Origin: a virus
Taxonomy: Duplodnaviria; Caudoviricetes
Length of the DNA stretch: 64,000 nt
IMG/VR virus record: IMGVR_UViG_3300010149_000008
Direction: 5' to 3' (one strand)
Shown: piece after piece, positions 4,630-54,707 of the stretch
Layout of the letters: every line of letters begins with the position of its first letter
How positions within the stretch are numbered: the first letter of the stretch is position 1
Notes under the pieces: generated by a model
What the model was told of the DNA's origin: nothing
Databases searched by the model: none
Seen by the model: only the letters and a program-made list of their open reading frames with translations
Program-made: the position numbers and the translations under genes

Positions 4630-4849
4630 TCATAAAGAAGAAATAAGATTTGTTTCTCAACTAAACAAAGGTGACATGATCGATATTTTTTATTACGGAA
4701 AAAAAATAAAAAACAATTGTTTAGTTGTAGAAATTATACAAGATCACTATTTTACAAAAGGTTTAATCGTCTATTTAAATGGAACATCTAAAGAAACAAT
4801 AGACTTGGAAAACAATGAAGGTCTTTGGGTTAAGAAAGCATCAATTTAA
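4619..4849 (+). CDS. Small KOW/SH3-like protein
   Basis: LNKGDMIDIF...CLVVEI; 3' end overlaps the convergent gene by 20 nt. Confidence 0.5.
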   Translation: MLNSHKEEIRFVSQLNKGDMIDIFYYGKKIKNNCLVVEIIQDHYFTKGLIVYLNGTSKETIDLENNEGLWVKKASI

Positions 4850-6488
4850 TATACTCTACTAAGCCTGATTTGTTTTCAAAAAGATAAACATGATCTCTAA
4901 AATAAGACTTACCGCGGTGATCCTGTTTTGAATATATTGTCTTAAGAATTTCTTTTATTTGACTATACTCTTTTTGATCTTTATATTTTGAGAAGTCAAA
5001 TTGTTGTAATATACACTGAAGTATTGAACTGTGAGAATTCGCAGAAATAACGTTAATTTCCCCTTGCAGATACAAAGTTTTCATTTTAGAAAGAACTGTA
5101 AGTATTTTTACTACATCGTTTAAATTTAATGACTCGTGTTTGTATATTTCAATGGCCTCGCTCCCCCAGATCATATCTTCTAATCCTTTAGACACGTTGT
5201 TGGAAAGTATTAGTTCGTCAATATACTGACTATCTTCTGTAGGGTTTTCTATAAAGTAATCTATCATTTCATCTTTAAAATTAGGCCCTATTAGATTAAA
5301 GTTTTTGTGTTCAACACAAAAAGCAATTAATATACAGAAAAAATCGTTTATATACTCTTTATTTTTATACATTTTACTTAATTCATCAATCGCGACATTA
5401 AAATCAGATTTATTAAGTATGTCATTTCTTTCAAGAAAACTAAAAGGAAGCGGAGCATCATCATATATTAAATCATTGTAAACTAGTTCTTCTTTATAAC
5501 TTCTCATTATATGCTCAACTACTTTTTTGTCATTTGTGTATTTTAAATAGCTTGACATTTCTTGATTTATTGTGTCGTCTCCAAGTCCTTGTGCATTCAT
5601 TTGTTTTTCTATTCTTAAGATTTGGCTTAAGGTAGCTTTTGAATACATCTCAGCAAATGACGTTTCTTTTCTGGTACTTACTCTATTTACAATCAAGTCT
5701 AATATGTCTTTGTTAACTATATCGTTTATTGTTGTTGAGTCTATAGATTGATTTTTAGCATCAACTGTCGATCCACCTTTTTCTTCTAATATGGCTTCAC
5801 CTTCATACACAGTATATGACAAACAAAGTCTTCTATTCACAGACTTGTCATTATCATAGTCTGTTCTTATAACATAAAACATGTGCAAATTACCTGCGTA
5901 ATTTGGAAACATGTTATTCCCTGTAGAGACTCCAGTGCACCAACCACTTCTTCTTTTCGGGTCAGTCTCTTCCGAACCGTCAGGTTTTCCATGTGTCCAT
6001 GCTATTGAACCCTGTATTGTTTTAGGTTCAATCACAATCCAGTCACGACCACTATACACAACGTCAAAGTCTTGATAACTCCCAATTATAGGCTTACCAC
6101 TCTGATATCTGCATTGTTGCCTAACTTCATTTTTATTAAAACTGGACTTAGCATCTATTTGTTTTCTAAGTTCATCAATAGAAATATTGCCACTACCTAT
6201 TTGATCTTTAATCTTTGGCCCTACTGATTGATAGATTTTTTTATAATGAAGCTTGCAAACATCTAATATTTCTTTAACGGGCTCTTGAGTTGTATTTATT
6301 TCATTTTGAATGACTTGTGTATATTTTGTGATAAATCTATTACTATTCCAAAATTCTATAAAATACTTAATTTCCCTTTCAGATCTTTCTTTTTTCTGTA
6401 ATGTTTGAATTAATTCATCTCGAGAAATTATCTTGTGCTCGTTAAGAAGAAAAGTCTTCCATTCATTTAATAACTGTGTAGTTTTCAC
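4830..6488 (-). CDS. Hypothetical phage protein with LxE leader and W-x-V...P-x-T...WCT domain
   Basis: 552 aa, GTG start. N-term LLNEWKTFLLNE; WIVIEPKT..GS...GWCTG...F..Y..LHMFYVI resembles a widespread large-phage (PcfJ-related) domain. Confidence 0.6.
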   Translation of the reverse strand: MKTTQLLNEWKTFLLNEHKIISRDELIQTLQKKERSEREIKYFIEFWNSNRFITKYTQVIQNEINTTQEPVKEILDVCKLHYKKIYQSVGPKIKDQIGSGNISIDELRKQIDAKSSFNKNEVRQQCRYQSGKPIIGSYQDFDVVYSGRDWIVIEPKTIQGSIAWTHGKPDGSEETDPKRRSGWCTGVSTGNNMFPNYAGNLHMFYVIRTDYDNDKSVNRRLCLSYTVYEGEAILEEKGGSTVDAKNQSIDSTTINDIVNKDILDLIVNRVSTRKETSFAEMYSKATLSQILRIEKQMNAQGLGDDTINQEMSSYLKYTNDKKVVEHIMRSYKEELVYNDLIYDDAPLPFSFLERNDILNKSDFNVAIDELSKMYKNKEYINDFFCILIAFCVEHKNFNLIGPNFKDEMIDYFIENPTEDSQYIDELILSNNVSKGLEDMIWGSEAIEIYKHESLNLNDVVKILTVLSKMKTLYLQGEINVISANSHSSILQCILQQFDFSKYKDQKEYSQIKEILKTIYSKQDHRGKSYFRDHVYLFENKSGLVEYIKLMLS

Positions 6489-6552
6489 TTAAAACCCTTT
6501 TTATATCTTTTCTATTTAGCATGCTTATTTATGATCCTTAGTAATATTAATA

Positions 6553-6582
6553 CGTGTAAATTAAATATTAATTAATTATAAT
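6553..6582 (+). promoter_or_regulatory. Putative promoter (C)GTGTAA-N17-TATAAT upstream of dnaE
   Basis: GTGTAA 6554-6559, TATAAT 6577-6582; same pattern recurs at several other intergenic sites. Confidence 0.6.
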
Positions 6583-6608
6583 AAATAAAAACAAGAAAGG
6601 TATATAAT

Positions 6609-10270: not shown

Positions 10271-11086
10271 TTATATATCTAAAACTAATAAATGTTTTTC
10301 TTTTAGAAGTTCAATAATATTAGCGTTGTCTTTTCTATAAGTTTTGCTTAAAGGGCTTTCTGGCCACATATACCCCATATGGTCCATAGCAGAAAACTGT
10401 GAAGTATCATCAGACGTCTGTGGTGTTAAAGGCATTAGCTTTCTAACGCCTTGATCTTCCCACTGATCTGGATACTCTTTTTTGTAATAAGAAATATCAT
10501 CAGGATTAATATCTAGCTGTTTAGCAACGACATCATTTCTTTTAACGTAATTTTTCCAAACTTTAATTGCTTCGTCTGTGACTGATGCAGAGTCTGGCTT
10601 TATTCCTGCATTTAAATTGTTAGAAACAAATTCTATAACAACTTCATACAAAAGAGGACCCATTCCTTTTTTTGTGTCGTGTGTTTTTTTTATGTACCAA
10701 GTAGAGTTAACTTCATCTTTTGCTTTGCCTGGAGCTTCAACATCAGGGTTGTCATATTCTGAAGCTAGCTTTGCTTTAGATGACATTATTTCTATGCAGC
10801 CGTATAATTGCGGCGCTAATTCATGTTGTTTTTTTTCTTTGCTATTTAAATACAAATTAACATTAGAAAACATTGATTTTTCTTTGCTTACATAACCAAT
10901 ATTATATTTGTTAATGTTTTCTTTTTGAATTTTTATTTTATACTCTAAATTGCTGTTAAAATTAATTTCTTCTAGTTTATTTATTTGTTTATATATTTTT
11001 TCAATACTAACTGGTTTATCTTCTTCACTTTCATTTAAAAAGTTTTTCCACTCTTTAATTAGCATTTTAAAGTTTTTGTTATTCAT
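10271..11086 (-). CDS. GNAT-like protein with LxE leader
   Basis: N-term MLIKEWKNFLNE; KKGMGPLLYE (acetyl-CoA-binding GxG-like) ... PDSASVTDEAIKVW. Confidence 0.55.
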   Translation of the reverse strand: MNNKNFKMLIKEWKNFLNESEEDKPVSIEKIYKQINKLEEINFNSNLEYKIKIQKENINKYNIGYVSKEKSMFSNVNLYLNSKEKKQHELAPQLYGCIEIMSSKAKLASEYDNPDVEAPGKAKDEVNSTWYIKKTHDTKKGMGPLLYEVVIEFVSNNLNAGIKPDSASVTDEAIKVWKNYVKRNDVVAKQLDINPDDISYYKKEYPDQWEDQGVRKLMPLTPQTSDDTSQFSAMDHMGYMWPESPLSKTYRKDNANIIELLKEKHLLVLDI

Positions 11087-11113
11087 TATTTTCCCAACTA
11101 TTTTTTCATTGTT

Positions 11114-13561: not shown

Positions 13562-13909
13562 TTATTTTAAATTATTACAGCAGGCGTCGAAGTCCTTTCG
13601 AGTCAATTTATAAATCTTACACCAGTTTTTTATTCTTTTTTCTTTGCGCTCGTAGTATCTATCACCATCAATATTACAGATTTCTCTTGCGTCTTCTTCC
13701 TGCTCCTGAGTAAAGTGTCTTCCAGGAAAGTATGGATGATCAGGTGCATTTGAATAATAATCCATTTGAGAAACCTCGCCTCTTTCAAATGCACCTCGAA
13801 ATGCAGTAGGCGAGTTATAACCTGAGTGTGCAATGTATGAGTCTCTCTGATCATCTTCTAGCAACACTTTTCTTATAATTCTTCTTAAACGGCTTTCTGT
13901 AATTTTCAT
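13562..13909 (-). CDS. Hypothetical protein with LxE leader
   Basis: Likely start ATG at 13909: MKITESRLRRIIRKVLLE. Confidence 0.7.
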   Translation of the reverse strand: MKITESRLRRIIRKVLLEDDQRDSYIAHSGYNSPTAFRGAFERGEVSQMDYYSNAPDHPYFPGRHFTQEQEEDAREICNIDGDRYYERKEKRIKNWCKIYKLTRKDFDACCNNLK

Positions 13910-14483: not shown

Positions 14484-17400
14484 ATGAGTCTAAAACTTAA
14501 AGACGCTTTATTTGAAACTAATGAAAAAAATCTATATAAGATTTTTGAAAAAGCAGATAAAAGAGAACTTGAAGGAAATGTTCAAGCGCTTAATAAGCAA
14601 AAACTACAAGCTGTGGTTAAAGCAATTGCAACTTCTTTAAATAACAAGTTACCGGATACGGAAACTGTAAAGCTAAAAGACGTAATGAAGTCTCCTTTAG
14701 GTGTTTTTGGTTTTAATGACATTAAAGCACTATCAAATGTTCCTATTGCACTAGGTCTAAAAATTGATCCTGTTAACATTAAAGGAGATCAATCACAAGG
14801 CATTGATCCTCTTTCTTTTAAAGCTGCAGATACTTTTGATATTATGCCAATACAGATTGTTAACAAATTTGGTGAGGCAATAGGTGGAAATGTTAAAGGC
14901 AACGAGATGATAGGAATTGCTTATTTTCCTGCAATAATGAAACCTTTAGATAATCCAGAATTTCATGTTAAAAGATTTGGATTGAAGCCTCCAGAAAAAG
15001 GTAATACTTTAATGCATATGAAGGTACCTTTAGATATTCCTGTTGAGCTGGTTACTAAAGAAGAGTTTGAAGAGATTCAAAAAGCTTTTCTTACAGGTAA
15101 AGAAGCAGTTATTAATAGAATTAGTAATTTGCAAAAGTCTAGAATAAGTGGAGGAGTTCCGGAGCAAGCAGGTCAAAGTGATGTTGCTATGTCAAAGAAT
15201 AAGAGAAAAACATCTGCAGACAATAAAGATGCGAGTAGTAACGAAGATAAAGATATAGACAACAAGACAGATTCAATAGAAAAACCAGATAAAATGCCAG
15301 AAGCATTTAACTTTTCTACAGGAAAAAAACTTCATGAACATTCTTTGTCATCATTGCTTTTAGAGAGTCAAGATGAAGATCCAGTTACAGAACCTGCAGC
15401 AAAATTGGACAAAGGTGGTGCGCAAGCGGAAATCGTTCCTCAACGAGTTGAATTTATGCTTAAAGATTTTCCTGGAGTAACTATTGAGCAAATGTTTTCT
15501 GTAGGTTCTGATATTTTTGCAGGAGATGAAAAAATAAGAAAAGCTGGTGTTGCCGGCGTTATTGACGATAATATAGAACAAAAACTAGATTCATATTTTG
15601 ATAGTATGAGTAGCTTTCAATTAGCATGTTTTTATCTGTACCTTGAAGCTATAGGTGAAATGGATGAATTTAATGCTACAGCTAATCAAACGGTATGGAA
15701 AAATTATATAAATAATAATTTTGGTGGTTCTATAGAAAATATGGTAACCGCGTTTAAAAGCAATCCTGAATCTCTTGATTTAAAACAAAATGGTATTACT
15801 AAAGATGAATTAGTAGCTTTATTTGATGATTTAAAACAACCTGAAGTTCAGGTTGCAACTCATATAGATAATTCTGTAAGTGGTGATAGTAAAGGATCGG
15901 CTACAGACCCTTTCAGTGAAGATCTTGATTCATTGTTTGACATAATAGATGTTGATGGTGTTGATGGTTGGTCGAACATGGATCCAGATGAACAAATAGA
16001 TGCAGTGAGCTCAAATCTAAGTGGCAGTCAATTACAACAAGTACTTAATACAGCTGAAGAAAACACTGGTAACGAAATGACGATACAAGCATTAACAAAT
16101 GCTGATGCACCTTTTTGCAATTTAGTTGTTGGAAATGAAAAAGAAAGTGACGAAAAATCTAGTATTCTATTTTTTCAAAGTATACAAATGTCCCCTAAAG
16201 GTAGACGTAAAAAAAATATTGTCTTTATAATCTTATTTAAAGATAATGGTGGCTACGAATTTTTAAGGAAAGATCATAAATTTGATACATACAAAGAAAT
16301 AATAGATAATCTTGCAGACTGCGCACTATATGATATTTCAAAAAACAAAGAACCCGATGTGCTTTCTATTTTATCTAGAATAAAAGAATTAGATGCCACC
16401 GAAGGCAAACAAACGATTACTAAAACGCTTCAAGATGAATTTAATATAGATATTGAACATCTTGAAAGTCAAGATGATGACAAAGGGCAAGAAAAACCAG
16501 ACGAAATTCAACAAGCTAGTTCTAAAGTTCCTAATGCGCCAAGCGAAGAAGAGCAAAAAGCTTACGAAGGATTTCAAGATATTTTTAGTGCTAATCGATA
16601 TGATAATAATTTGTCGACAGCGCAAAATAATATTTCAAAAGTACAAGACACAGAGCAAAAAATTCCAGATAAAATAAAGTCTAAAATCGATCAGATTGAC
16701 AAATTATCTGGAGTCGATCAAAATGATATTAAAAATGTAGGTGCGCTTTTAAATGCAAAGAGCGATTTATGTCGAACTATGTCAACTGTAATGGATGACG
16801 TAGAAGATTGTGCAAAAAATTTATCAAAACTTGTAAAATTTAAACCAAAAATAAGTGAAGAAGGCGAAGAACGAAAATTTGTGCCTAAGTATAGGACTAA
16901 ATCTTTTGTTGCGGGTCTTGATTATGTTAAAAAAGTTGCTAATTTAGTAGAAGAAACTTTTAATGCTATGGGAATTAGTGAATTTCTTTCTCAAGAAAGT
17001 GAATCTCAAAATACTGTTGCTATGCTTAATAACAGTGCTCGTCCAATTGTAAAAAGTATATTAGACTTTAAATATAAAGATAATAAAAGATCATATTCTC
17101 AATTTAGTCAATGGAGCAAAACTTATAAAATAAGTACTCGAGTAAATGATCAGTGGGAAAAAAAGACTGGCGATGATGTTAAAAATTCTATTCAATATTT
17201 AATTGAAGAGTTAGTAAAAGCATTTAAAAAAGGCTCAGCACAAATAGAAAAAGAGCTTAATAATGCTATTGAAGATTTTAGTAAAGAAAACGCTGAAGCT
17301 TTAAGTAAAGTTGAACAAGGTGCCTTTAATTGGCGTGAAGGTTTAAAATATGATATTGATAAAATATACAAGCCTTTTAGTAAAATAAGTGGTATTGATA

Positions 17401-22728: not shown

Positions 22729-23190
22729 ATGAAGCTTAACGAGAATATGATGAAAAAAGTTTTAAAAGAAGAGTATGACAAGAGAATAAAATATTTTCTT
22801 ACAGAAAAGATAACTGTTAAAGATAAACGTGGTGTAAATGTTTTGCAATATGCTAATGGTCTTAAAGTTTTAGATAGTGCAGGAAATCAATACTCTTTTG
22901 ATGGAGTAGTTAAAAAAGGAAATGAAGAATTTGCTAAACTTTACTTACCTGATGAGCCTCGTAAAGATGCTTATGGAGTAAGTGGAGGATCAACTTTGCA
23001 TGAAGATGAAAGAGGCGAAATTGGATTTTACAGTAGATCTAATGGAAACATGAGAGACGTTTCGGCTGTTGATGACGTTGAAATGCCAGAAGAAAGACCT
23101 TCCTCACCTAAACTTCCAGATAGAAAATTTATACTAGTTCCTATGGGTGAATTTGAGCAAAGATTTAAACTTAAAACTGAAGAAGAGTAA
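22729..23190 (+). CDS. Hypothetical protein with LxE leader
   Basis: MKLNENMMKKVLKEEYDKRIKYFLTE leader. Confidence 0.7.
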   Translation: MKLNENMMKKVLKEEYDKRIKYFLTEKITVKDKRGVNVLQYANGLKVLDSAGNQYSFDGVVKKGNEEFAKLYLPDEPRKDAYGVSGGSTLHEDERGEIGFYSRSNGNMRDVSAVDDVEMPEERPSSPKLPDRKFILVPMGEFEQRFKLKTEEE

Positions 23191-23198: not shown

Positions 23199-23936
23199 AT
23201 GCATATAAATAATTTAATTAAAAAAGCGATCGCTGAAACATTAGAAGAAAAAGGATTATCAACCAATGCTAGTCAAGAAAGATTAACAGAGAACAATCTT
23301 GTTTCATCTGGAGTTATGTCTGAGGCTTATGTCGCTGAAGCTGGAAAGTTTAATTTAAAAACAGAACTTTTATCAGATAAAACTAAGAAAGCACATCAAG
23401 AACTTTTAGAAGGATACGTTGAAAATCTTAACAAAGTTTCTGCAAAGTTAGACGGAGTAGACAAATCTTCAGCTAATTTAAACCACTCTGACTTTCGAAA
23501 CTTAAAGGTAGACGAAACTTACAATCATAATGCTGCATTTTTACATGGCATGTATTTTGAAAACATAAGTGACTTAAATAGTCAGATTACAGTTGATTCA
23601 TTGACTTATATGAAGTTAGCAAGAGACTTTGGCACGTTTGATAAGTGGCAAGAAGATTTTGTTGCTTGTTGTCTTTCAGCAAGAAATGGTTGGGCTGTTA
23701 CTTTTTATAATCCAAATCTTAAAAGATATATGAATACTGTTATTGACTTACATAGCCAAAACGTAATGATTAGCATGCTTCCAGTTGTTGTAATGGATTG
23801 TTGGGAACATAGTTATTATAGAGATTATCTTAAAGACAGAAAAACATATGTCTATGGAATGATGAAAGAGATAGATTGGTCTATTGTTGAGAATAGAGTT
23901 AAATTATCTGAAAAAATTGCGAAAGTGTTAGGTTAA
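23199..23936 (+). CDS. Fe/Mn superoxide dismutase with N-terminal extension
   Basis: Metal ligands KAH..., AFLHGMYF, MDCWEHSYY; FGTFDKW and GW motifs; about 50-aa leader with ETLEE/RLTE/VMSE. Confidence 0.88.
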   Translation: MHINNLIKKAIAETLEEKGLSTNASQERLTENNLVSSGVMSEAYVAEAGKFNLKTELLSDKTKKAHQELLEGYVENLNKVSAKLDGVDKSSANLNHSDFRNLKVDETYNHNAAFLHGMYFENISDLNSQITVDSLTYMKLARDFGTFDKWQEDFVACCLSARNGWAVTFYNPNLKRYMNTVIDLHSQNVMISMLPVVVMDCWEHSYYRDYLKDRKTYVYGMMKEIDWSIVENRVKLSEKIAKVLG

Positions 23937-23938: not shown

Positions 23939-24769
23939 ATGTCTGATAGATTTTTAAACAATATGAAGTATATGCTAGAAAATACTAGAGGTTTGTCATT
24001 AAAAGTTTTACTTGAAGACAAAGAAGATAAAGAAGACAAAGAAGATAAAGAAGACCCCTTTGCAGATGCGTTCGACAGTAATGACGAAGATGAAAAGGAC
24101 ACAGACAAAGAAGATAAAAAGAGCGCAGAAGAAGGTGAAGATGAAGAAGGTGAAGATGACGTAACTGAGCCTGAAGAAAGCACTGATAGTTCTGCTGGTG
24201 TATATGATGATTTACATAGCTTGTCTGATTTTACAAAAACAGTTTCTGACGCTAATGATGAAAAAGAAAGAGTTAAAAATAAATTTAAGTTTAAACCTGA
24301 AGCTATAATTTCTTCTTCGTTTGATCCTATAATAAGTCATAAAAACAAGTCTTCTTTAATTTTAAAGAATTTACTCTTAATGAAAGAAGAAAGTAAATTT
24401 GACAAAACTTTAGATAAAGTAGAAAAGTCAATAGAAGATGAGCAAAAAAGAATAGAAAAATTAGGAGATGATGCACATTCTATTTCTTCAAAGATAGTAA
24501 AAGGATTTAATATAAATCATGAAAAAGAATCAGCAGAAGCTTTAAATAATTTTAAAAACTTTGATGCTAAATTTAGCAAAGCTGAGCTTGTTGCAAACAT
24601 GTATATTGATAAAATATCTGATTTAAGTTCGCCTCAAGACTTAGAAAGAAACATAAAAGATTTTTTATCTAGATTTAACCAGCTTTTACCAGACAGCGAT
24701 AAGATTGATATACAGGAAAAGCCGACTTCATATAATACAGGCACAGGCGGCAAAACACCGTCAGGATAA
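23939..24769 (+). CDS. Acidic hypothetical protein with LxE leader
   Basis: YMLE...LSLKVLLE followed by an (EDK)n acidic tract. Confidence 0.7.
   Translation: MSDRFLNNMKYMLENTRGLSLKVLLEDKEDKEDKEDKEDPFADAFDSNDEDEKDTDKEDKKSAEEGEDEEGEDDVTEPEESTDSSAGVYDDLHSLSDFTKTVSDANDEKERVKNKFKFKPEAIISSSFDPIISHKNKSSLILKNLLLMKEESKFDKTLDKVEKSIEDEQKRIEKLGDDAHSISSKIVKGFNINHEKESAEALNNFKNFDAKFSKAELVANMYIDKISDLSSPQDLERNIKDFLSRFNQLLPDSDKIDIQEKPTSYNTGTGGKTPSG
24012..24053 (+). repeat. 9-bp in-frame repeat encoding EDKEDKEDKEDKED
   Basis: GAAGA(C/T)AAA units read directly. Confidence 0.85.
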
Positions 24770-25531: not shown

Positions 25532-25942
25532 ATGAAAATAGATTTAGCAAATATAAAAGATTTAGCAAAAAACCTTTTGTTTGAAAATAATATAAATGAG
25601 CTCAGGCTTCCTCTAGACCATGACATGGATGCGGGTAAAAATAATAGAACTTCTGCTAAGGATCAACCTGGGCCTCAAATAGATGGTGAAGGTAATTATG
25701 AAAAGTCATACGAAGACTTAGAAGATGAGTTACCATTAGTACCATCAGATATTATGCCTGTCTTCTATGATGAAAAACTATCAGTTAATGCATTAGATGA
25801 CGAAGAATATATACCACAAAACACTTCAGAGCTCATGCGAGCATCTAATACGCTTATAGATAGAAATAAAGAAGAATTAAGTAGCAAAGAAATAGAGCTA
25901 GCATGGAAAACTTTAGTTAAAATTATTAAGAAAGCGAACTAG
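25532..25942 (+). CDS. Hypothetical protein with LxE leader
   Basis: DLAKNLLFENNINE leader. Confidence 0.65.
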   Translation: MKIDLANIKDLAKNLLFENNINELRLPLDHDMDAGKNNRTSAKDQPGPQIDGEGNYEKSYEDLEDELPLVPSDIMPVFYDEKLSVNALDDEEYIPQNTSELMRASNTLIDRNKEELSSKEIELAWKTLVKIIKKAN

Positions 25943-30870: not shown

Positions 30871-31688
30871 ATTCGTACTATAGCTACTCTTTTGATTTAA
30901 AAAGCATAAACTCTATTAATGAATACTTGTTTATATTAAAAAACTGCTTAAGACTAGCTTCTAAAAACAAGCTTTACAACAATACTTTCAATAAAAGAAT
31001 ACATATAAGCTACTGCAATGTCACAAATAAATATTATTATAAAGTTAATAATAGCAATATAAAAACAGATATTTCTTGTGATTTAAGTATTGTCTATAGC
31101 TTTAATTTAAAAAAGCAATTAGACGTTTTAAAGTTGAACAAATACTCAAATAGAACTATAGAATTTGAAATAGACAAAGACAACAAACTATACCCAATAA
31201 CGCTGTATAATAGTAATACTAAAAAAATAATATTAGCATACTCAGACTTATTTTCTTATTTTGTTAATGTAAATAATAGTATAAGAAAATTGAATTTACA
31301 AATAAATATTGAAAATTACCAAAAATTATATTACAAATTTATAGAGTATATAGAAAATATAAAAATTCTAAAAGACATCAACTCAATTAAATATACTAAC
31401 TTGACAAAAAAAAGTTCTGATGTGAGAATGGATTATCTAGATTTTGATAAAGCATACAAGATGAAACTGTTTCCTTTAAAAAAGCACAGATTTTATTACA
31501 CTGTTTTTTTAATATCTATTGAATTTAATAATTTTTTAAGAGACAATCTTGATATTCCTGTTAGCAACTTTTGTATATTTGACAACAGTATAGGGAAAAT
31601 TATTAAGTTTCCTTGCTCTTTTTATAACAATGTTTATAAAGAAAATACAAAAAAACATTTGCCACCTTTGCTACCTGTGAGATTTTAA
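30867..31688 (+). CDS. Hypothetical protein
   Basis: 273-aa ORF, Asn/Lys/Tyr-rich. Confidence 0.6.
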   Translation: MNSYYSYSFDLKSINSINEYLFILKNCLRLASKNKLYNNTFNKRIHISYCNVTNKYYYKVNNSNIKTDISCDLSIVYSFNLKKQLDVLKLNKYSNRTIEFEIDKDNKLYPITLYNSNTKKIILAYSDLFSYFVNVNNSIRKLNLQINIENYQKLYYKFIEYIENIKILKDINSIKYTNLTKKSSDVRMDYLDFDKAYKMKLFPLKKHRFYYTVFLISIEFNNFLRDNLDIPVSNFCIFDNSIGKIIKFPCSFYNNVYKENTKKHLPPLLPVRF

Positions 31689-31939
31689 TGACAAAAGAAG
31701 AATTTTTTAAAGTAAAAGAGCTTCTCGATGAAATCGGAGAGTATTATAAAGACAATGACTGGTTAATAGTTAAGAAATATATTTTAAGATATTTAAATCC
31801 GACAATAAGAAAATATTTTTCTACTAGAGACTTAAAGTCTAAAAAGCATAAAATTAATAGCTTTGATCAAAAAGCTATAGACTATTATTACCAAAAATTC
31901 AATGTAAAGTTGGTGTTAGATGATTCAAAAAAATTATAA
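31688..31939 (+). CDS. Hypothetical protein
   Basis: 83 aa, TAATG-coupled to the upstream gene. Confidence 0.6.
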   Translation: MTKEEFFKVKELLDEIGEYYKDNDWLIVKKYILRYLNPTIRKYFSTRDLKSKKHKINSFDQKAIDYYYQKFNVKLVLDDSKKL

Positions 31940-33779
31940 ACTTCAAATTTCAGATAATAAAACAATTATTAAAGAAGTCCAAGGTGGAAGTCCCTATGCG
32001 CAAACAGCAATGAAAGGAGCAGGCCAATTAACTATAAGTGCAGGTGAAGCTTTAAAAATGACGGGTGCTTTTCTTAAAAGGTCTTGGGGCGCAACTTTTG
32101 GTTATATGTTTACAGTATATCAAAGTGTTAGAAGCCATGGAGTTATAAGAGGCTTGGCTGTTGCAAATAAACAATTTACTTCTAAAGATAAACAGATAAA
32201 AAACGAAATGAAAAGTTTAATAAAAGCTCAACCTGGAGCAAAAGATGCTGAGCTTTTTATAGGAATGACATGTCCTGCCGCAAGAGCTTTTGATGTTTTT
32301 GTAGATAAAGATTTTAAACAAATCAATCTTCCCGGAAATACTGGCAAAGGTTCACGTGAAAGAGATAGAGAAAAATATAAAGCTTTTTACAACTTTGTTA
32401 TGATAGTATCACATATTTCACATGGTACTAAATTGAAAGATTTCGAAGAAAACAATAAAAGACTGACTAGAAAACAAAGAGAAAAAAGTATAAAGAAAAA
32501 ATATAAAGTTGACAAAGAAGCTCTGAAAAATTTACAAACAGAAAAGTTTGTTGATGTTTGTAAAGCAATAACTTTTTTACATAAGCCTAATAGAAATTTA
32601 AGAAAAATTTTTAAAAAAAATGATGTTAGCTACCCAACTTTAAATACTTTACAAAATGGTTTTGTAAAATTTATGTTAAGCAATCAAGATAAAAACAAGT
32701 GTTTAAAATTCATATCAGAAGGAGAATTAGAAAGCACAGTTGTGTCTTTGTCTAATTTACTATCTCTTGATGACTCAATAAAATGTGTTAAATACATACT
32801 AAAAAACGAAAATCTATCAGATAGTGCTGATGATGAAGGGGAAGAGGAAGAGAGACTTAACTCAGGTTTTAGTCTTTTATTGAAAAAAAATAAAACTATA
32901 ATCAAAGAAGCTGAAGAGGAAGAGGAAGAGGACGTAAGTAGTGAAAAAGTTAAAGATTTAAAGTCAGGAATGGCACTTTCTTTTGCAACTTTTTATATAA
33001 TGAGATCATCAATACTTTCTATATTATCTGACATTACTGTTTCTGTGTCTATAGCAATTAATACAGCAACTGATGTTGTTTTTAATAGTATACTTAGCGA
33101 AAAAAATGACATAAACATTTCAGAAAGTAAAAATATTCTATTAGAAAACAAAGAAAACTCAGCTGAGTTAAGTGGTAAAATTGAAAAAGTTAACAAGCAA
33201 ATTGATTTATTTAATAGACAATTTGAGTACTCAATTGAAAAAATTGATATAGGTATACTGAAGGATCTTCAAGGTTTTGCATCAAAAATAACAAAAGAAG
33301 TTGAAAAATCAGAGGCTGAGTTAGATTCTAAATTAAAAGATGATAAAGAAAAAAAAGTTGCTAGATCAACTGGGATAATTGAAATTTTAGAAAAAATAAA
33401 ATCTTCTGCTTCAGAGATAAATTTGTCTTCTGAGATATCTGTATCAATAAACAATGCAAAAAAAATAATAGAAGAAGACATGATGGACTTAGATGAAATT
33501 TTAATTTTAGTTGGAAAAAACAAAAACAAACTATCAGACGTAGGTCTAAGCGAGAATTCAATAGCTAAAATAAAAAATACAATTGACAAAGCAACAAAAG
33601 ACATTAATGACTTAAATGACATTGAAAATAAAATAACTAGTTATACAGATAGAATAGAACAGTTAAAATCTAGTTTAGATGAAGATATAAATAGTTTAGA
33701 TGAAGAAAAAAGCAAAGAAACAGACACAGAAACTATAGAAATACCCAAGGAAAAACTAGACATTGAAAAGGAGAAATGA
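31920..33779 (+). CDS. Hypothetical coiled-coil protein
   Basis: 619 aa; NKTIIKE occurs twice (N-terminus and mid-protein). Confidence 0.65.
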   Translation: MIQKNYKLQISDNKTIIKEVQGGSPYAQTAMKGAGQLTISAGEALKMTGAFLKRSWGATFGYMFTVYQSVRSHGVIRGLAVANKQFTSKDKQIKNEMKSLIKAQPGAKDAELFIGMTCPAARAFDVFVDKDFKQINLPGNTGKGSRERDREKYKAFYNFVMIVSHISHGTKLKDFEENNKRLTRKQREKSIKKKYKVDKEALKNLQTEKFVDVCKAITFLHKPNRNLRKIFKKNDVSYPTLNTLQNGFVKFMLSNQDKNKCLKFISEGELESTVVSLSNLLSLDDSIKCVKYILKNENLSDSADDEGEEEERLNSGFSLLLKKNKTIIKEAEEEEEEDVSSEKVKDLKSGMALSFATFYIMRSSILSILSDITVSVSIAINTATDVVFNSILSEKNDINISESKNILLENKENSAELSGKIEKVNKQIDLFNRQFEYSIEKIDIGILKDLQGFASKITKEVEKSEAELDSKLKDDKEKKVARSTGIIEILEKIKSSASEINLSSEISVSINNAKKIIEEDMMDLDEILILVGKNKNKLSDVGLSENSIAKIKNTIDKATKDINDLNDIENKITSYTDRIEQLKSSLDEDINSLDEEKSKETDTETIEIPKEKLDIEKEK

Positions 33780-48292: not shown

Positions 48293-48614
48293 TTTCTTTC
48301 ATTCCAAAATCAATACAACACTGTGGAAAACTTTGTTCTACTTTTTTACCTATGTCAACCATTACAAAATTAACTTTAGTATCTTTTTTATCACCATCGA
48401 ATCTAACGTTTCTATTGTTTAAATCAGCTGAAACAACATTGCCTTGAAAGATTTCATTTTTTTTAGCATTAAATTTTTTAGTACTTGCTGCTTTAGCACA
48501 ACCTCCGCAACAAATTTTTATTTTTACTTTTTGCCCAGCTTTATACTTGACATCTGTAAATTTGTTTTCATTTAAAAATATTCGCCACTCGTTTAAAATT
48601 TCTTTTGTTTTCAT
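48285..48614 (-). CDS. Hypothetical protein, LxE leader + SH3-like/CCxxC domain
   Basis: MKTKEILNEWRIFLNE; YKAGQKVKIKICCGGC. Confidence 0.65.
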   Translation of the reverse strand: MKTKEILNEWRIFLNENKFTDVKYKAGQKVKIKICCGGCAKAASTKKFNAKKNEIFQGNVVSADLNNRNVRFDGDKKDTKVNFVMVDIGKKVEQSFPQCCIDFGMKESE

Positions 48615-48922: not shown

Positions 48923-49551
48923 TACCACCACCCAGGAATGTTTCTTCCAAATAACTTTGTAGCTCTACACGACCAATATCCAGCTTTAGTCTTGTCTTTT
49001 TTCTCGCTGCATTTGTGTCTATCACCAAAAGACTTCCTCCTTTTTTTATGGGCTTCGCTTTTTCCCATAGCCATAGACATTGAAGATCCAAAAGTAACTT
49101 TTTTAACTTTAATTCTTCCTTTTTTATCTTTTTTTCCAGAATTAACAAAAACAACAGCCTTGCCGTTTCCTGCTCTTTTAACACCGGCTTTTCCTAGTTT
49201 AACTTTTTTACCTTGATACTCAGCTTCAGCGATTATGTCATCTTCTAAATAATAGTCTTCTAATAAAAATGGGTAATCTAGTGGAACCATTTGACCTTCG
49301 TAGCTAGCCCATTGTCCTACTTCAAGCTCTTTTATGTACATTTTATCAATTTCATGTAGTAAGTTTATTTTACCACTTTCATATAATTTTCTAGCTTCAT
49401 TAAATAAGTTAAAATATTCTTTTGAGCCTCTTCTGTATACATTAGTGCTAATAGGTATATTTTCTTTAATATGAAACTTAAGTCCTTCTGATAGTAAATT
49501 CTCCTCTGACTTTACTATTTCAACAACATAATCTTTTAAATTTATAGTCAT
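48922..49551 (-). CDS. Two-part protein: acidic LxE-rich N-half, basic C-half
   Basis: LLSE, YLLE, IIAE|AEYQGKKVKLGK...KKVTFG...RRKSF..RH.C...KAGYWSC. Confidence 0.7.
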   Translation of the reverse strand: MTINLKDYVVEIVKSEENLLSEGLKFHIKENIPISTNVYRRGSKEYFNLFNEARKLYESGKINLLHEIDKMYIKELEVGQWASYEGQMVPLDYPFLLEDYYLEDDIIAEAEYQGKKVKLGKAGVKRAGNGKAVVFVNSGKKDKKGRIKVKKVTFGSSMSMAMGKSEAHKKRRKSFGDRHKCSEKKDKTKAGYWSCRATKLFGRNIPGWW

Positions 49552-49571
49552 GTTTTTCCTTGTTAATTTGT

Positions 49572-49602
49572 GCGTGTATTTTTTAATAATAAATATTATA
49601 AT
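49572..49602 (+). promoter_or_regulatory. Putative promoter GCGTGTAT-N17-TATAAT
   Basis: GTGTAT 49574-49579, TATAAT 49597-49602. Confidence 0.6.
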
Positions 49603-49626
49603 AATATAAAAAAAAGGTTTATTATA

Positions 49627-50538: not shown

Positions 50539-50598
50539 AATATAATTTATAAATTGTATCTAATTATAATATAATAATACTAACTTAATGAGGATATA

Positions 50599-51669: not shown

Positions 51670-51672
51670 AAC

Positions 51673-52872: not shown

Positions 52873-53092
52873 TTTTAAAAAAGGAGACTTAATACAGTTT
52901 AAAATTTCTAAAGAACTCTGTATTATAATTGACGATTTTGATCAAGAAAAATTTGAAGCTTTAAATACAACTGTAGTTTCTAATATGTCTAGAAAAATAT
53001 TAACGTTTACAGAAAGAGGTCCTGAAATTAATTTTACACCAAACTTTAATATAGCTTTAATTAAAAGTGAAAAGGAAGAAAATGATACCTAG
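52865..53092 (+). CDS. Small KOW/SH3-like protein
   Basis: FKKGDLIQF...LCIII. Confidence 0.55.
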   Translation: MFNFKKGDLIQFKISKELCIIIDDFDQEKFEALNTTVVSNMSRKILTFTERGPEINFTPNFNIALIKSEKEENDT

Positions 53093-54233
53093 ATATAAAG
53101 TACAAGAAATTCATGATATATGGAAAACAGATAATAAGCTAAAAACATGGCTAGCTGTAGAAATTGCTCATTTAGAATCATTAGCTAATAGCATTACTGA
53201 TAAGACTATTAGTAATGAAAGCTTTGAAATTATTAAAGAAAACGCAAAGATTGATATTGATAGATGGAAAGAAATAGAAAAAGAAACTAGACACGATCTT
53301 CAAGCTTTTGTGCAAATGCTTGAAGAAAGTATACCTAAAAACGAAGGAAGATGGATTCATTACGGACTAACGTCTTCTGACATTTTAGATACTTCTCTTT
53401 CAATAATGTCAAAGAAAAGTCTGAACGTGATCATAAATTATACTGCAAAAGTTTTATATACACTTAACAAACTTTTAAAATCAGACGTTTATAAAAAAAA
53501 TATCTTAGCAAGAACTCATGGAAAATCTGCAGAAATACAAACGTACTATGATGTTTTTTATAGATGGATTAGCTTTGTAAGAAAAGGCCATGATTCACTA
53601 GTTGAAGCAAAAAACAAGATAAGCGTTGGAAAATTAAGTGGTGCAACAGGAAATTATAAATTTAACACTAAACAATGTGAATATAATGCATTAGATTCTT
53701 TAGGACTTAAACCAGTTGTATCTTCTCAGATTATATCGAGGCAGTATTATCTAGACTATTTTTATGGAATATTGCAAGTTATTTTAGCTGTAGAAAAAAT
53801 TGCATATGACATCAGGATTTACAGTTTAGATGGCATTAATGAAATGTCTGAACCCTTTAGAAAAGGACAAAAAGGTTCAAGCGCAATGCCACACAAGAAA
53901 AACCCTATATTAACAGAAAATATATGCGGATTGACACGTTTATACAAAGCTTATTTTTCAACAGCTGTTGAAAATTGTACGACTTTGTTAGAGAGAGATA
54001 TCTCTCACTCTTCTTCAGAAAGAATTATTTTCAAAGACTCAGCACATATTGCATGCTTTACATTAGATAGGCTAGACAAAGTATTAAAAGGCTTAAACAT
54101 AGATACAGTTAACGCAAAAAATAATTGCAAAAAAATGGAATCTGCTACAAACTCACAAAAATCAATGAACGATTTAATAGAACAAGGTTATAGCAGAAAA
54201 GAAGCACATGATATTACACAGTCAAACATATAA
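53082..54233 (+). CDS. purB: Adenylosuccinate lyase (C-terminally shortened)
   Basis: ETRHD, IHYGLTSSDILDT, ARTHG, GKLSGATG, GSSAMPHKKNP, LERDISHSS.ERI. Confidence 0.93.
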   Translation: MIPRYKVQEIHDIWKTDNKLKTWLAVEIAHLESLANSITDKTISNESFEIIKENAKIDIDRWKEIEKETRHDLQAFVQMLEESIPKNEGRWIHYGLTSSDILDTSLSIMSKKSLNVIINYTAKVLYTLNKLLKSDVYKKNILARTHGKSAEIQTYYDVFYRWISFVRKGHDSLVEAKNKISVGKLSGATGNYKFNTKQCEYNALDSLGLKPVVSSQIISRQYYLDYFYGILQVILAVEKIAYDIRIYSLDGINEMSEPFRKGQKGSSAMPHKKNPILTENICGLTRLYKAYFSTAVENCTTLLERDISHSSSERIIFKDSAHIACFTLDRLDKVLKGLNIDTVNAKNNCKKMESATNSQKSMNDLIEQGYSRKEAHDITQSNI

Positions 54234-54266
54234 TTATATAATATAAAAACTATAGAAAGTAATAAA

Positions 54267-54707
54267 ATGAAAAGATTTAGTGAAAGAAGCATTGCAAGAA
54301 ATTTTCTAAATGAGATAGCTGATTCTAAAATATCATTAGGTACAGCATTCATTTCTGACGACGATACTGTTAAAGGCCAATCACATTCAGAGCTCGATCC
54401 AGACAACGACGGATATATAACACATGAGGATTTGTTTGGTCATTTCGATGTTGATAACGATGGTTTCGTTACAACAGATGAGTATGTCGACCATATTCAA
54501 TACCATGCTGATAATCCTGAGACACTTGATCATTACAGAGACGATGTACCTTGCAATACTTCTTATAACACATGTAGAACACATTATGACAATGATGATG
54601 AAGTCTTAAGGCGTTGTATTTCAAATACAGGTGCAACGTGTATGCAATCAGGAATTCAAGCTCTCATCGATGTGTTAACTGCAATGAAAAAATCAGGTAT
54701 GATTTAA
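54267..54707 (+). CDS. EF-hand Ca2+-binding protein with LxE leader
   Basis: SIARNFLNE leader; two EF-hand loops DPDNDGYITHED and DVDNDGFVTTDE. Confidence 0.75.
   Translation: MKRFSERSIARNFLNEIADSKISLGTAFISDDDTVKGQSHSELDPDNDGYITHEDLFGHFDVDNDGFVTTDEYVDHIQYHADNPETLDHYRDDVPCNTSYNTCRTHYDNDDEVLRRCISNTGATCMQSGIQALIDVLTAMKKSGMI

What the first reader, a model, noticed from the sequence alone, without database searches (positions are those of the whole stretch)
4830..54707. About 20 unrelated proteins share one amphipathic [LIF]-[LIM]-x-E tag: a candidate capsid-loading and protease-maturation system for a virion-delivered toolkit
Seen in sequence: N-terminal helices ending in hydrophobic-hydrophobic-x-Glu at 4830- (LLNEWKTFLLNE), 10271- (LIKEWKNFLNE), 13562- (RRIIRKVLLE), 14484 (LKDALFE), 22729 (VLKEE..YFLTE), 23199 (ETLEE/RLTE), 23939 (LSLKVLLE), 25532 (KNLLFE), 25948, 29250 (QNLME), 30172 (FSLLE), 31920 (KTIIKE twice), 39234 (LLAE), 41938 (DIMLE), 44374- (LNLLNE), 46662 (YIKVYLNE), 47239-/47587- (EALIDE), 47900- (EILIQE), 48285- (ILNEWRIFLNE), 48922- (IIAE) and 54267 (RNFLNE). 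The functional domain often begins right after the Glu (MLE|GGAGGH, IDE|ARKKKK, IAE|AEYQG). The replication and metabolic enzymes (DnaE, TK, ligase, PurA, UvsE) lack such a leader. Established: T4 prohead protease gp21 cleaves after Glu at (I/L)-x-E and removes the short capsid-targeting leaders of internal proteins; phiKZ-type proteases also cleave after x-x-E. Inference: this is a portable packaging tag grafted onto diverse cargo (SOD, GNAT, nucleotidyltransferase, nuclease-like, EF-hand, basic proteins), defining a large injected proteome.
Basis: partly seen in the sequence, partly recalled or inferred. Interest (0 to 1): 0.85.

Follow-up and report, generated by a model that had tools for sequence, protein, structure and literature searches.

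The report
Capsid-loading leader tags, marine jumbo phage
Roughly a dozen or more otherwise unrelated proteins of this uncultured 256-kb marine phage start with short helical tags ending in hydrophobic-x-Glu, the cut site of the T4-type head protease the phage also encodes, so they are probably loaded into the capsid and trimmed there as T4 does with its internal proteins, but on a much larger scale.

Summary
The excess is confined to residues 1-20 and is specific to Glu. About a third of the individual calls could be chance, two listed sites are internal, and there are at least two leader families, not one.

The window's own 256,231-bp contig encodes a T4 gp21-type prohead protease (Pfam Peptidase_S77, catalytic His and Ser kept). 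It sits beside a T4-type portal and a gp23-type capsid protein.

The strongest leader (LNEW-K/R-x-FLNE) occurs in 137 public viral and metagenome stretches. In 126 of 131 it lies within 19 residues of the start, on 22 unrelated protein bodies, and a codon-reversed control pattern gave 0 hits. A second leader (MKIT..EL..II.EE) heads 50 further body families. Large contigs with either leader carry S77 about as often as their completeness allows.

In 117 homologues of the tagged superoxide dismutase, the variable 42-residue extension keeps two invariant (L/I/M)-x-Glu sites.

This is an expanded variant of the T4 capsid-targeting-sequence system. The scan has reported the same kind in at least eight other genomes. 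Packaging, cleavage and injection remain untested.

The parts
6438..6488 (-). W-class leader (17 aa, two hh-N-E sites, Trp after the first) of the 552-aa protein 4830-6488
   Evidence: Class-A HMM 21.3 bits against a best internal window of 4.4. A near-identical orthologue in IMG/VR locus L019 has the canonical leader, one Leu shorter. At the syntenic spot, relative G001 has two other leader-bearing genes with unrelated bodies.
11030..11086 (-). W-class leader (19 aa) of the 271-aa protein 10271-11086
   Evidence: Class-A HMM 17.9 bits. Its C-terminal domain (aa 138-269) is homologous to two G002 proteins that also start with W-class leaders.
48567..48614 (-). W-class leader (16 aa) of the 109-aa Cys-rich protein 48285-48614
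   Evidence: Class-A HMM 28.9 bits. Homologues with the same leader occur in IMG/VR and metagenomes.
54267..54314 (+). Half W-class leader (ends NFLNE) of the 146-aa EF-hand protein 54267-54707
   Evidence: Class-A HMM 9.2 bits, E 0.004. EF-hand Pfam matches.
13856..13909 (-). KIT-class leader (18 aa, MKIT...VLLE) of the protein 13562-13909; the true start is the internal ATG at 13909
   Evidence: Class-B HMM 13.5 bits against a best internal window of 4.0. The class occurs in 87 IMG/VR places, 84 of them directly behind a start codon.
23199..23324 (+). 42-aa N-terminal extension of the Fe/Mn superoxide dismutase 23199-23936, with sites L15-x-E17 and M40-S-E42
   Evidence: Pfam Sod_Fe_C 71.8 bits. 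Homology to solved SODs starts near aa 40. In 117 homologues the extension is variable (0.58) but E17 is 99% and E42 100% conserved.
47524..47577 (-). 18-aa leader (ends ALIDE) of the basic DUF5824 protein 47239-47577; a Lys-rich body starts right after the Glu
   Evidence: DUF5824 38.1 bits. hh.E count 4 against 0.1 expected. G002 has a basic protein with a KIT-like leader ending AILDE followed by Lys/Arg.
47821..47874 (-). Paralogous 18-aa leader of the basic protein 47587-47874
   Evidence: Same leader as 47239- apart from one residue.
48248..48292 (-). 15-aa leader (ends ILIQE) of the basic protein 47900-48292; a Lys run follows the Glu
   Evidence: Same leader-plus-Lys-rich-body layout as its two neighbours. 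Individually moderate.
46195..46245 (-). 17-aa leader (ends NLLNE) of the 623-aa protein 44374-46245
   Evidence: Motif at aa 14-17. Individually moderate.
46662..46706 (+). 15-aa leader (ends VYLNE) of the 186-aa protein 46662-47222
   Evidence: Individually moderate.
49486..49551 (-).
   Evidence: hh.E count 5 against 1.1 expected, z 4.2. Positions.
14484..14516 (+). 11-aa N-terminus (ends ALFE) of the 2744-aa protein 14484-22718
   Evidence: The site is kept as LIYE in the orthologue of a relative that is only 12% identical overall. Internal sites are not enriched overall.
22729..22806 (+). 26-aa N-terminus with two sites (VLKE, FLTE) of the 153-aa protein 22729-23190
   Evidence: The first site is kept (ILSE) and the second is shifted by one residue in the orthologue at 24% identity.
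23939..24016 (+). 26-aa N-terminus with two sites (YMLE, VLLE), followed at once by a long acidic tract, in the 276-aa protein 23939-24769
   Evidence: Both sites are kept in the orthologue at 29% identity. The layout resembles T4-like gp67, where FLIE is followed by an acidic tail.
25532..25585 (+). 18-aa leader (ends NLLFE) of the 136-aa protein 25532-25942
   Evidence: LLFE is kept in the orthologue at 36% identity. The same KNLLFE hexapeptide recurs at aa 2334-2339 of the 2744-aa protein.
25948..25992 (+). 15-aa N-terminus (ends TLIE) of the 1099-aa protein 25948-29247
   Evidence: Kept as KLLE followed by NKN in the orthologue at 27% identity. It is L-x-E only, so weaker.
30172..30240 (+).
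   Evidence: SLLE becomes NLFD in the orthologue, while TIYE is kept as FINE.
31688..31732 (+).
   Evidence: Kept as LMLE before an identical IGEYYK in the orthologue.
31920..31976 (+). 19-aa N-terminus (ends TIIKE) of the 619-aa protein 31920-33779; the heptapeptide NKTIIKE recurs at aa 321-327
   Evidence: The orthologue has LTE a few residues earlier. Moderate.
41938..42024 (+). 29-aa N-terminus (ends DIMLE) of the 807-aa protein 41938-44361; a Gly-rich stretch follows the Glu
   Evidence: (gene call of 807 aa). Only a weak cytidylyltransferase-like match. In relative L270 the slot holds a different 636-aa protein.
29250..29273 (+).
   Evidence: The Glu is Cys in the orthologue at 43% identity.

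Best explanation
The window belongs to an uncultured marine jumbo phage whose head is built the T4 way. It has a gp20-type portal, a gp23-type capsid protein, acidic core and scaffold proteins, and a gp21-type (S77) serine protease that cuts after Glu in (L/I)-x-E.

A dozen or more proteins in the window carry N-terminal amphipathic helices of 10-30 residues that end in hydrophobic-hydrophobic-x-Glu. At least two leader families are present, a W-class and a KIT-class.

Inferred mechanism:
1. The helix docks the protein onto the assembling scaffold core, so it is enclosed in the prohead.
2. Once the shell is complete, the protease removes the leader at the Glu. This frees the mature protein (superoxide dismutase, EF-hand protein, Lys-rich DNA-binding-type proteins, large unknown proteins) inside the capsid.
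3. At infection, at least some of these proteins leave with the DNA.

Shown here: the enrichment, position and Glu-specificity of the motif; its portability across unrelated proteins; its conservation under peptide-level selection; and the presence of the matching protease and head genes in the same genome.

Inferred only: docking, cleavage, residence in the virion and injection.
For: Motif statistics:
- Enrichment and position.
- Glu-specificity, in the window and in two related genomes.

Own-genome protease and head module:
- P0093 has a longest contig of 256,231 bp, equal to the window's contig length.
- It scores 101.6 bits on Peptidase_S77 and matches the T4 gp21 structure 5JBL at E 1e-16.
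- It is 37% identical to a T4-like gp21, with GELDHP and GISSRG aligned to GELNHP and GVSSRG.
- Its neighbours are Portal_T4 (265.9 bits), Gp23 (120.3 bits) and Terminase_6N.
- The protease starts with L-I-T-E at residue 9, where T4-like gp21 has L-I-E at residue 9.
- The capsid protein has VLRE at residue 59, near where T4-like gp23 has its FLTE string at residues 60-63 of that record (the E65 site in T4 numbering).

Portability:
- The W-class pattern gave 17 IMG/VR hits and more than 119 metagenome hits, and the codon-reversed control gave 0.
- 126 of 131 hits lie within 19 aa of the first possible start, 95 of them exactly at residue 5, on 22 body families.
- Synonymous codons vary freely.
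- The KIT-class gave 87 hits, 84 directly behind ATG or GTG, on 50 body families.

Link to the S77 protease:
- 4 of the 5 largest W-class contigs have both S77 and Gp23.
- 12 of 24 KIT-class contigs have S77, where summed completeness predicts 11.6 if every genome has one.

Conservation:
- In the SOD family, E17 is 99% and E42 100% conserved inside a variable extension.
- 9 of 11 N-terminal sites are kept in orthologues that are 12-43% identical.

Analogy and cassette behaviour:
- In relative G002, an ADP-ribosyltransferase domain starts right after a W-class leader, as in T4 Alt.
- Leader-bearing genes with different bodies sit at syntenic slots in relatives.

Established T4 biology (10-residue CTS, cleavage after Glu, GFP loading): PMC9026906, PMC9958956, PMC5694885.
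Against: - There are no protein-level data: no virion proteome, no observed N-termini, no cleavage assay.
- A structure prediction of protease plus leader gave no answer.
- The leaders are not recognisably similar to the T4 CTS beyond M-K at the start and h-x-E at the end.
- About a third of the individual N-terminal matches are what chance gives, and some housekeeping enzymes (TK, ligase, GroEL) also match.
- The tagged genes show no distinct shared promoter. The T4 late box TATAAATA is not enriched (10 seen against 12.5 expected), and many tagged genes sit behind the same TATAAT-rich intergenic regions as early-type genes.
- One 94%-complete KIT-class contig has no S77 match.
Confidence: 0.68

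Rival explanations
1. The leaders are real head-assembly propeptides, but the tagged proteins are mainly scaffold or core components and DNA-condensing fillers. They would be degraded or stay in the capsid, and would not be an injected enzyme toolkit.
For: - The 23939 protein has a leader followed by a long acidic tract, like T4-like gp67, which is a core protein degraded by gp21.
- Three tagged proteins are little more than Lys-rich tails.
- Most cargo bodies have no recognisable enzyme domain.
Against: - Some bodies are folded enzymes or effector-like domains: an SOD with a conserved mature N-terminus, an EF-hand protein, and an ADP-ribosyltransferase in relative G002.
- T4 internal proteins and Alt, the closest analogues, are injected (PMC9958956).
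Confidence: 0.17
2. The shared N-termini serve a function unrelated to the capsid. Examples would be a common docking helix for a cytoplasmic partner, a degron or localisation signal, or a translation-initiation-friendly coding start.
For: - No direct link to virions was shown.
- The tagged genes lie scattered among early-type genes and behind sigma-70-like promoters.
- N-termini in this AT-rich genome are generally richer in Lys, Asn, Ile and Leu.
Against: - Shuffling only the N-terminal residues does not reproduce the motif.
- The final residue is specifically Glu, not Asp.
- Synonymous sites vary freely, so selection acts on the peptide and not on the mRNA.
- Contigs with the leaders carry the Glu-specific S77 protease about as often as their completeness allows.
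- The protease, core proteins and capsid protein carry the same kind of site at the places where T4 is cut.
Confidence: 0.08
3. The pattern is a chance or compositional effect of a short degenerate motif in an AT-rich genome.
For: The motif is only four residues long, and 6-8 N-terminal matches per 76 ORFs are expected. At least one listed site (29250) is not conserved.
Against: - 0 of 2000 local shuffles reach the observed count.
- Longer leaders recur with 10-14 fixed residues on dozens of unrelated proteins, while a control pattern gave 0 hits.
Confidence: 0.03

Closest known systems
Phage T4 capsid targeting sequence (CTS) of internal proteins IPI-III and the Alt propeptide, removed by prohead protease gp21 (Mullaney and Black 1996; reviews PMC9026906, PMC9958956)
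   Same: - A short N-terminal leader of 10-20 residues on unrelated, often basic proteins.
- The leader ends in (L/I)-x-Glu.
- The genome encodes an S77 gp21-type protease, a gp20-type portal and a gp23-type capsid protein.
- Protease and capsid protein carry sites at the positions where T4 is cut.
- Cargo genes behave as swappable cassettes.
- A relative has an ADP-ribosyltransferase cargo, like Alt.
   Different: - The leader sequences differ. There are two conserved families of 14-18 residues, one with an invariant Trp and two Glu sites seven residues apart.
- The repertoire is about 12-20 genes in 64 kb, and first-stage notes report more elsewhere in the genome, against four or five in T4.
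- Cargo includes a superoxide dismutase and an EF-hand protein.
- The phage replicates with a DnaE-type polymerase and carries GroEL and a sigma-70-type factor.
- Nothing has been shown experimentally.
[quoted passage not shown]
   Same: A conserved leader with variable bodies, and different cargo at the same genomic slot in related phages.
   Different: Here the same leader spans phages from 30 to 49% GC and at least 22 (W-class) and 50 (KIT-class) body families.
phiKZ, 201phi2-1 and SPN3US giant-phage head protein processing (PMC5694885)
   Same: Giant phages in which many head and ejection proteins are processed after Glu by a protease related to gp21.
   Different: - Those proteases prefer small residues (Ala/Ser/Gly-x-Glu), and propeptides are often longer than 100 residues.
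- Here the -2 and -3 positions are hydrophobic, as in T4, the leaders are short, and the capsid, portal and protease match the T4 Pfam families directly.
MuF-domain polymorphic toxins and the P1 Dar system (other ways of loading cargo into capsids)
   Same: Diverse cargo delivered through the capsid.
   Different: Those systems rely on fusion to, or dependence on, a head protein domain (MuF, DarB/Hdf). No such domain was found on the tagged proteins by Pfam. Here the address is a short cleavable peptide.

Membership tests
T4-type CTS / gp21-propeptide system | The genome encodes a gp21-type (MEROPS S77) prohead protease with its catalytic residues | tested here: met
   P0093 lies on a contig of 256,231 bp. 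It scores 101.6 bits on PF03420 against a cut-off of 27. It matches 5JBL at E 1e-16. His in GELDHP and Ser in GISSRG align with the T4-like gp21 residues, and those two positions are Ala in the solved chain.
T4-type CTS / gp21-propeptide system | T4-type head module (gp20 portal, gp23 capsid protein) next to the protease | tested here: met
   L264 carries Portal_T4 at 265.9 bits, Gp23 at 120.3 bits and Terminase_6N at 65.5 bits. The syntenic relative G001 has the same module.
T4-type CTS / gp21-propeptide system | The leader sits at the extreme N-terminus, is 10-20 residues long, and ends in (L/I)-x-Glu | tested here: met
   In the window the Glu positions peak at residues 1-20. 126 of 131 W-class and 84 of 87 KIT-class occurrences lie at the start of the ORF. 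The effect is Glu-specific.
T4-type CTS / gp21-propeptide system | The same leader is attached to unrelated mature proteins | tested here: met
   22 and 50 body families at BLASTP E<1e-4. Within the window the bodies are unrelated and include SOD, EF-hand and DUF5824.
T4-type CTS / gp21-propeptide system | Sequence similarity of the leader to the T4 CTS itself | tested here: inconclusive
   Only the M-K start and the h-x-E end are shared by eye. No T4 internal-protein sequence was fetched for a formal comparison. The W-class leader resembles the protease's own N-terminus (LITEW..F) at a PSSM score of 7.2, which is within the chance range, and it resembles the gp23 N-terminus only weakly.
T4-type CTS / gp21-propeptide system | The leader is removed by the protease after the Glu | not testable with these tools
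   This needs N-terminal or semi-specific mass spectrometry, or an in vitro cleavage assay. The complex prediction gave no answer. Indirect support: invariant Glu in the SOD family and in orthologues.
T4-type CTS / gp21-propeptide system | Tagged proteins are present in mature heads and enter the host with the DNA | not testable with these tools
   There is no cultured phage and no proteome. This is inferred from T4 (PMC9958956).
phiKZ-type protease processing ((S/A/G)-x-Glu) | A small residue at position -2 of the cleavage site, and long propeptides | tested here: not met
   Position -2 is L, I, M or F in the leaders, and the leaders are 8-42 residues long.
MuF polymorphic toxin / head-protein fusion cargo | Cargo fused to a MuF or other head-protein domain | tested here: not met
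   No MuF or head-protein Pfam domain was found on any tagged protein.

The most novel reading that the evidence does not exclude
Marine T4-superfamily phages, from ordinary 180-kb cyanophage-like genomes to this DnaE- and GroEL-carrying jumbo lineage, may share a small set of universal, sequence-readable capsid-address peptides: the W-class LNEW-K/R-x-FLNE and the KIT-class MKIT..EL..II.EE. If so, the packaged and injected proteome of uncultured ocean phages could be read directly from metagenomes; at least 70 cargo families were seen here alone. The two classes might address different places or times in the prohead, for example the W-class imitating the protease's own N-terminal propeptide.
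Probability: 0.3. Interest if true: 0.75.

Novelty: new variant of a known kind. Interest (0 to 1): 0.55.

Why it matters
If the reading is right, a phage's packaged and possibly injected protein set can be predicted from sequence alone in a large and abundant group of uncultured ocean phages. The set would be far larger and more varied than the handful of proteins known from T4.

It would also assign a role to many viral 'dark matter' ORFs. It would explain why enzymes such as a phage superoxide dismutase carry conserved N-terminal extensions. And it would supply new short tags, with a matching protease, for loading foreign proteins into T4-type capsids.

The concept itself is anticipated in the T4 literature (PMC9026906), so this extends known biology and does not add a new principle.

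Tried and rejected
- Whole genome: none is held, and the window's record cannot be searched by handle.
- Walking to the head module with the look-up of encoding contigs stalled after two loci of the 256-kb contig. Later look-ups returned only short contigs. The head module was reached instead through the relative's protease and the longest-contig field.
- Searches of the phage collection with window DNA and the 1099-aa protein found nothing. PHROGs gave nothing for ten tagged proteins. IMG/VR held no relative of the 1099-aa protein, nor an exact stretch of the window.
- Complex prediction of protease P0093 with residues 1-40 of the 48285- protein gave no verdict. It is not evidence either way.
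- The T4 late promoter box TATAAATA is not enriched, and reading all upstream regions showed no motif special to tagged genes.
- The 2744-aa protein as a polyprotein punctuated by sites: its hh.E count is not above shuffles, although a few leader-like sites exist.
- The W-class leader as a mimic of the gp23 N-terminus: a PSSM score of 5.6 is within chance. I kept this only as a remark.
- Text searches for the leader strings, and for cyanophage propeptides, found no relevant paper.
- The Atlas look-up of the 552-aa cargo gave only viral hypothetical clusters.

Full report
WHAT THE WINDOW IS.
The window has 30% G+C and no tRNA genes. I called 76 non-overlapping ORFs of at least 50 aa. An exact-protein look-up places it on a 256,231-bp marine metagenome contig, ENA ERZ27249212 k141_115948. 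Fragments of the same phage occur in other ENA, JGI and Logan marine samples. Window position w corresponds to record position 126284-w.

The tagged proteins have no PHROG families. Nothing similar is in the phage collection. The DnaE polymerase is only about 28% identical to any phage homologue. No whole genome or handle is available.

Pfam identifies ordinary enzymes:
- epimerase, VWA protein and dCMP deaminase;
- 5'-3' exonuclease, GroEL and a sigma-70-type factor;
- IMPDH-like protein, adenylosuccinate synthase and lyase;
- UvdE, SNase, DNA ligase, and a MoxR-type ATPase with a DUF2201 partner.

Yes, as a set.
- Shuffling whole proteins gives 5.9 +/- 2.4 (largest 14 of 500).
- Shuffling only residues 2-30, which keeps the special composition of N-termini, gives 7.8 +/- 2.5, and none of 2000 shuffles reaches 19.
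- The rate is 1.23 per 100 residues at the N-terminus and 0.33 elsewhere.
- The Glu lies almost always at residues 1-20.
- The excess is specific to Glu. The N-terminal/rest rate ratio is 4.3 for hh.E, no other final residue among the eight commonest exceeds 2.7, and Asp is not among those eight. In two related genomes the Glu ratio is 3.9 and 2.2, and the Asp ratio is 0.7-0.8.

So roughly 11-15 of the N-terminal matches are more than chance, and 6-8 are not.

- LLAE of 39234 and IIAE of 48922- are internal, at aa 97 and 106.
- Two genes start at later ATGs, 13909 and 41938.
- NKTIIKE of 31920 does occur twice.

IT IS NOT ONE TAG.
Three proteins (4830-, 10271-, 48285-) share a long leader of the form h-h-x-E-W-K/R-x-F-L-x-E. 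The EF-hand protein 54267 has its second half. An HMM of this W-class scores them at 9-29 bits, against 4.4 for the best of 322 internal windows.

The protein 13562- starts with MKIT...VLLE and matches a second class, the KIT-class, at 13.5 bits against 4.0.

The two DUF5824 paralogues and their neighbour 47900- have leaders ending LIDE or LIQE, followed at once by Lys runs. The others have shorter family-specific N-termini.

PORTABILITY, TESTED ON PUBLIC DNA.
I back-translated L-N-E-W-[KR]-x-F-L-N-E into a degenerate DNA pattern that does not specify position in a gene.
- The same codons in reverse order hit none in IMG/VR.
- Of 131 matches with a closed upstream frame, 126 lie within 19 residues of the first possible start codon, and 95 lie exactly at residue 5.
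- The 130 N-terminal ORFs fall into 22 families of mutually unrelated bodies, 45 to 615 aa long, on contigs of 30-49% G+C.
- Synonymous positions vary freely, for example four Leu codons and GAA/GAG near 55:45. Selection therefore acts on the peptide, not the nucleotide sequence.

A pattern for K-I-T-x-x-E-L-x-x-I-I-x-E-E hit 87 places in IMG/VR. In 84 of them the preceding codon is ATG or GTG, although the pattern did not ask for that. The bodies form 50 families.

Neither Pfam nor PHROGs has a model covering these leaders. Text searches found no paper that mentions them.

LINK TO A GLU-SPECIFIC HEAD PROTEASE.
Four of the five largest W-class contigs carry Pfam Peptidase_S77 (T4 gp21) and Gp23 above the curated cut-offs. 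Twelve of 24 large KIT-class contigs carry S77. If every genome had one, the summed completeness estimates predict 11.6.

One of the W-class contigs, G001 (133 kb, 30.9% G+C), is a close syntenic relative of the window phage. Its last 5 kb match window 169-4849 at 38-88% amino-acid identity. Its head module lies about where first-stage notes place the head genes of the window's genome.

Searching with G001's protease returned P0093. It is 88% identical, and its longest contig is 256,231 bp, the length of the window's own contig.
- P0093 scores 101.6 bits on Peptidase_S77.
- It matches the solved T4 gp21 structure 5JBL at E 1e-16.
- It is 37% identical to a T4-like gp21. His (GELDHP) and Ser (GISSRG) sit at the two positions that read Ala in the solved chain and His/Ser in the T4-like gp21, taken here to be the catalytic pair.

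A 13.1-kb contig from the same sample series (L264) shows its neighbours:
- T4-type large terminase and Portal_T4 (265.9 bits);
- a 278-aa protein, then the protease;
- small core-like proteins, one of which starts with three hh.E sites in 23 residues;
- a 580-aa acidic scaffold-like protein and a Gp23-family capsid protein.

The capsid protein's N-terminus contains LTEG and VLRES, the strings a first-stage note gave for this genome's capsid. That ties L264 to the window's genome. VLRE ends at residue 59, close to where T4-like gp23 has its FLTE maturation site. The protease has L-I-T-E ending at residue 9, where T4-like gp21 has L-I-E at residue 9. The reviews describe that as fitting the gp21 cleavage logo (PMC9026906).

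CONSERVATION OF THE SITES.
The tagged superoxide dismutase (Sod_Fe_C 71.8 bits) aligns to solved SODs only from about residue 40. It has 1311 metagenomic homologues of the same length.

In 117 of them the body is 0.86 identical to consensus and the 42-residue extension only 0.58. Inside the extension, two islands are nearly invariant:
- I7, A10, T14, L15, E17 (116 of 117) and G19;
- a hydrophobic residue at 40, and E42 (117 of 117), followed by A/S-Y-V.

A syntenic relative (237.5-kb contig, loci L268 and L270) has orthologues of the 14-35 kb block at 12-72% identity. The N-terminal sites of 14484, 22729, 23939 (both sites), 25532, 25948, 31688 and the SOD (both sites) are kept. That of 29250 is lost (Glu to Cys). 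The first site of 30172 becomes Asp while a second one is kept.

CASSETTE BEHAVIOUR AND CARGO.
At the slot of window gene 4830-, G001 has two other minus-strand genes with W-class-like leaders and unrelated bodies. At the slot of 41938, the L270 relative has a different 636-aa protein. A more distant relative, G002 (42% G+C), shares DnaE, GroEL, IMPDH and the MoxR pair with the window. It has an array of six or seven consecutive W-class genes and many KIT-class genes. One of them is an ADP-ribosyltransferase domain that starts right after the leader. That is the arrangement of T4 Alt, which is packaged, trimmed by gp21 and injected (PMC9958956).

In the window, the cargo with recognisable folds are the SOD, an EF-hand protein and the basic DUF5824 proteins. 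The 23939 protein, a leader followed by an acidic tract, has the layout of T4-like gp67. The nucleotidyltransferase call is weak, and no GNAT or nuclease domain was found on a tagged protein. The SNase gene 46242- has no leader.

MECHANISM AND ITS STATUS.
Established for T4 (PMC9026906, PMC9958956, PMC5694885):
- a 10-residue CTS targets proteins, even GFP, into the scaffold core;
- gp21 cuts after Glu in (L/I)-x-E;
- 10-20-residue propeptides are removed;
- internal proteins and Alt enter the host.

Shown here: the same protease family and head module in this genome; leaders with the right position, length and Glu-specific end; their portability; and peptide-level conservation.

Inferred: docking on the core, cleavage, residence in heads and injection. 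A predicted complex of protease and leader gave no verdict.

I put 0.68 on the T4-type capsid-loading and trimming reading. I put less, about 0.5, on injection of most cargo.

WHAT ARGUES AGAINST, AND WHAT FAILED.
- There is no distinct promoter for tagged genes.
- Some enzymes carry chance matches.
- One nearly complete KIT-class contig has no S77 match.
- The 2744-aa protein is not enriched in sites.
- The resemblance of the W-class leader to the gp23 N-terminus is not significant. Its resemblance to the protease's own N-terminus is only suggestive.

NOVELTY.
The principle is known from T4, and the T4 literature already suggests that the CTS lets T4-like phages load varied proteins. What I could not find described are two things. 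The second is their use by a DnaE- and GroEL-carrying jumbo lineage at a density of a dozen or more genes per 64 kb.

This scan has already reported the same kind of system in at least eight other genomes and, unverified, in other windows of this genome. I rate it a new variant of a known kind, with interest 0.55.

Noticed in passing
IMG/VR loci L179-L258 (for example L184, L187, L191): A second portable leader, M-K-I-T-x-x-E-L-x-x-I-I-x-E-E, occurs in 87 places in IMG/VR. In 84 of them it sits directly behind a start codon. It heads 50 unrelated body families on contigs of 26-47% G+C. No Pfam or PHROG model covers it.
   Followed up: partly
L048:7299-7832 (-) in G002: A 177-aa protein has a W-class leader directly followed by an ART-PolyVal ADP-ribosyltransferase domain. 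This is a close analogue of T4 Alt. It lies in an array of six or seven consecutive W-class genes.
   Followed up: partly
window 23939-24769 (+): A leader with two conserved hh.E sites is followed by a long Asp/Glu/Lys tract (KED repeats). The layout matches the T4-like prohead core protein gp67. The 22.7-34 kb block may be a second head-internal protein module far from the head genes.
   Followed up: partly
window 25532-25585 and 14484-22718 (aa 2334-2345): The hexapeptide KNLLFE at the end of the 25532 leader recurs inside the 2744-aa protein, followed six residues later by FLTE. The 2744-aa protein is split into 1503-aa and 497-aa genes in the relative L268.
   Followed up: partly
window 31920-33779 (+): The heptapeptide NKTIIKE occurs twice, at aa 10-16 and aa 321-327. 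The second copy is followed by a Glu run, which could be an internal processing site.
   Followed up: no
L007:3180-3782 (+), about 6 kb before the window start: A 200-aa ClpP-family protease gene (PF00574) sits among ribonucleotide reductase, thioredoxin, amidase and ThyX genes. It is a second phage protease, separate from the head module.
   Followed up: no
window 57569-60040 (+): A MoxR-type AAA ATPase is paired with a DUF2201 metallopeptidase-like/VWA protein. The pair is conserved in the distant relative G002 at 33-36% identity.
   Followed up: no
window 62116-63619 (+): Two genes have signal-peptide or lipoprotein-like starts. One is a Peptidase_C39-like cysteine protease and the other a thrombospondin type-3 repeat (calcium-binding) protein.
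   Followed up: no
L058 (LR756508.1, 484-kb uncultured phage) 14733-19423: Directly downstream of its gp23-type capsid gene, the closest phage-collection relative of this lineage's capsid protein (47% identical to G001's), lies an array of five or six paralogous genes of about 250 aa. Their N-termini are of the M-R/K-L-K-x-h-L-x-E type.
   Followed up: no
L264:4866-5702 (+): The 278-aa protein between the portal and the protease contains LLNEWR at aa 129-134, the first half of the W-class leader, and has 11 hh.E sites. It could be a core protein that shares the docking motif.
   Followed up: no
window 40430-41908 (+) and L270:14830-16572: The orthologue in the relative starts with a lipoprotein-type signal (hydrophobic stretch then Cys) 90 residues upstream of the aligned part. 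The window gene probably starts upstream of 40430, in the 40158-40429 gap.
   Followed up: no
G001 131500-133024: The last 1.5 kb of the IMG/VR relative has only short ORFs of odd composition on the minus strand. This is possibly a chimeric or non-coding contig end.
   Followed up: no
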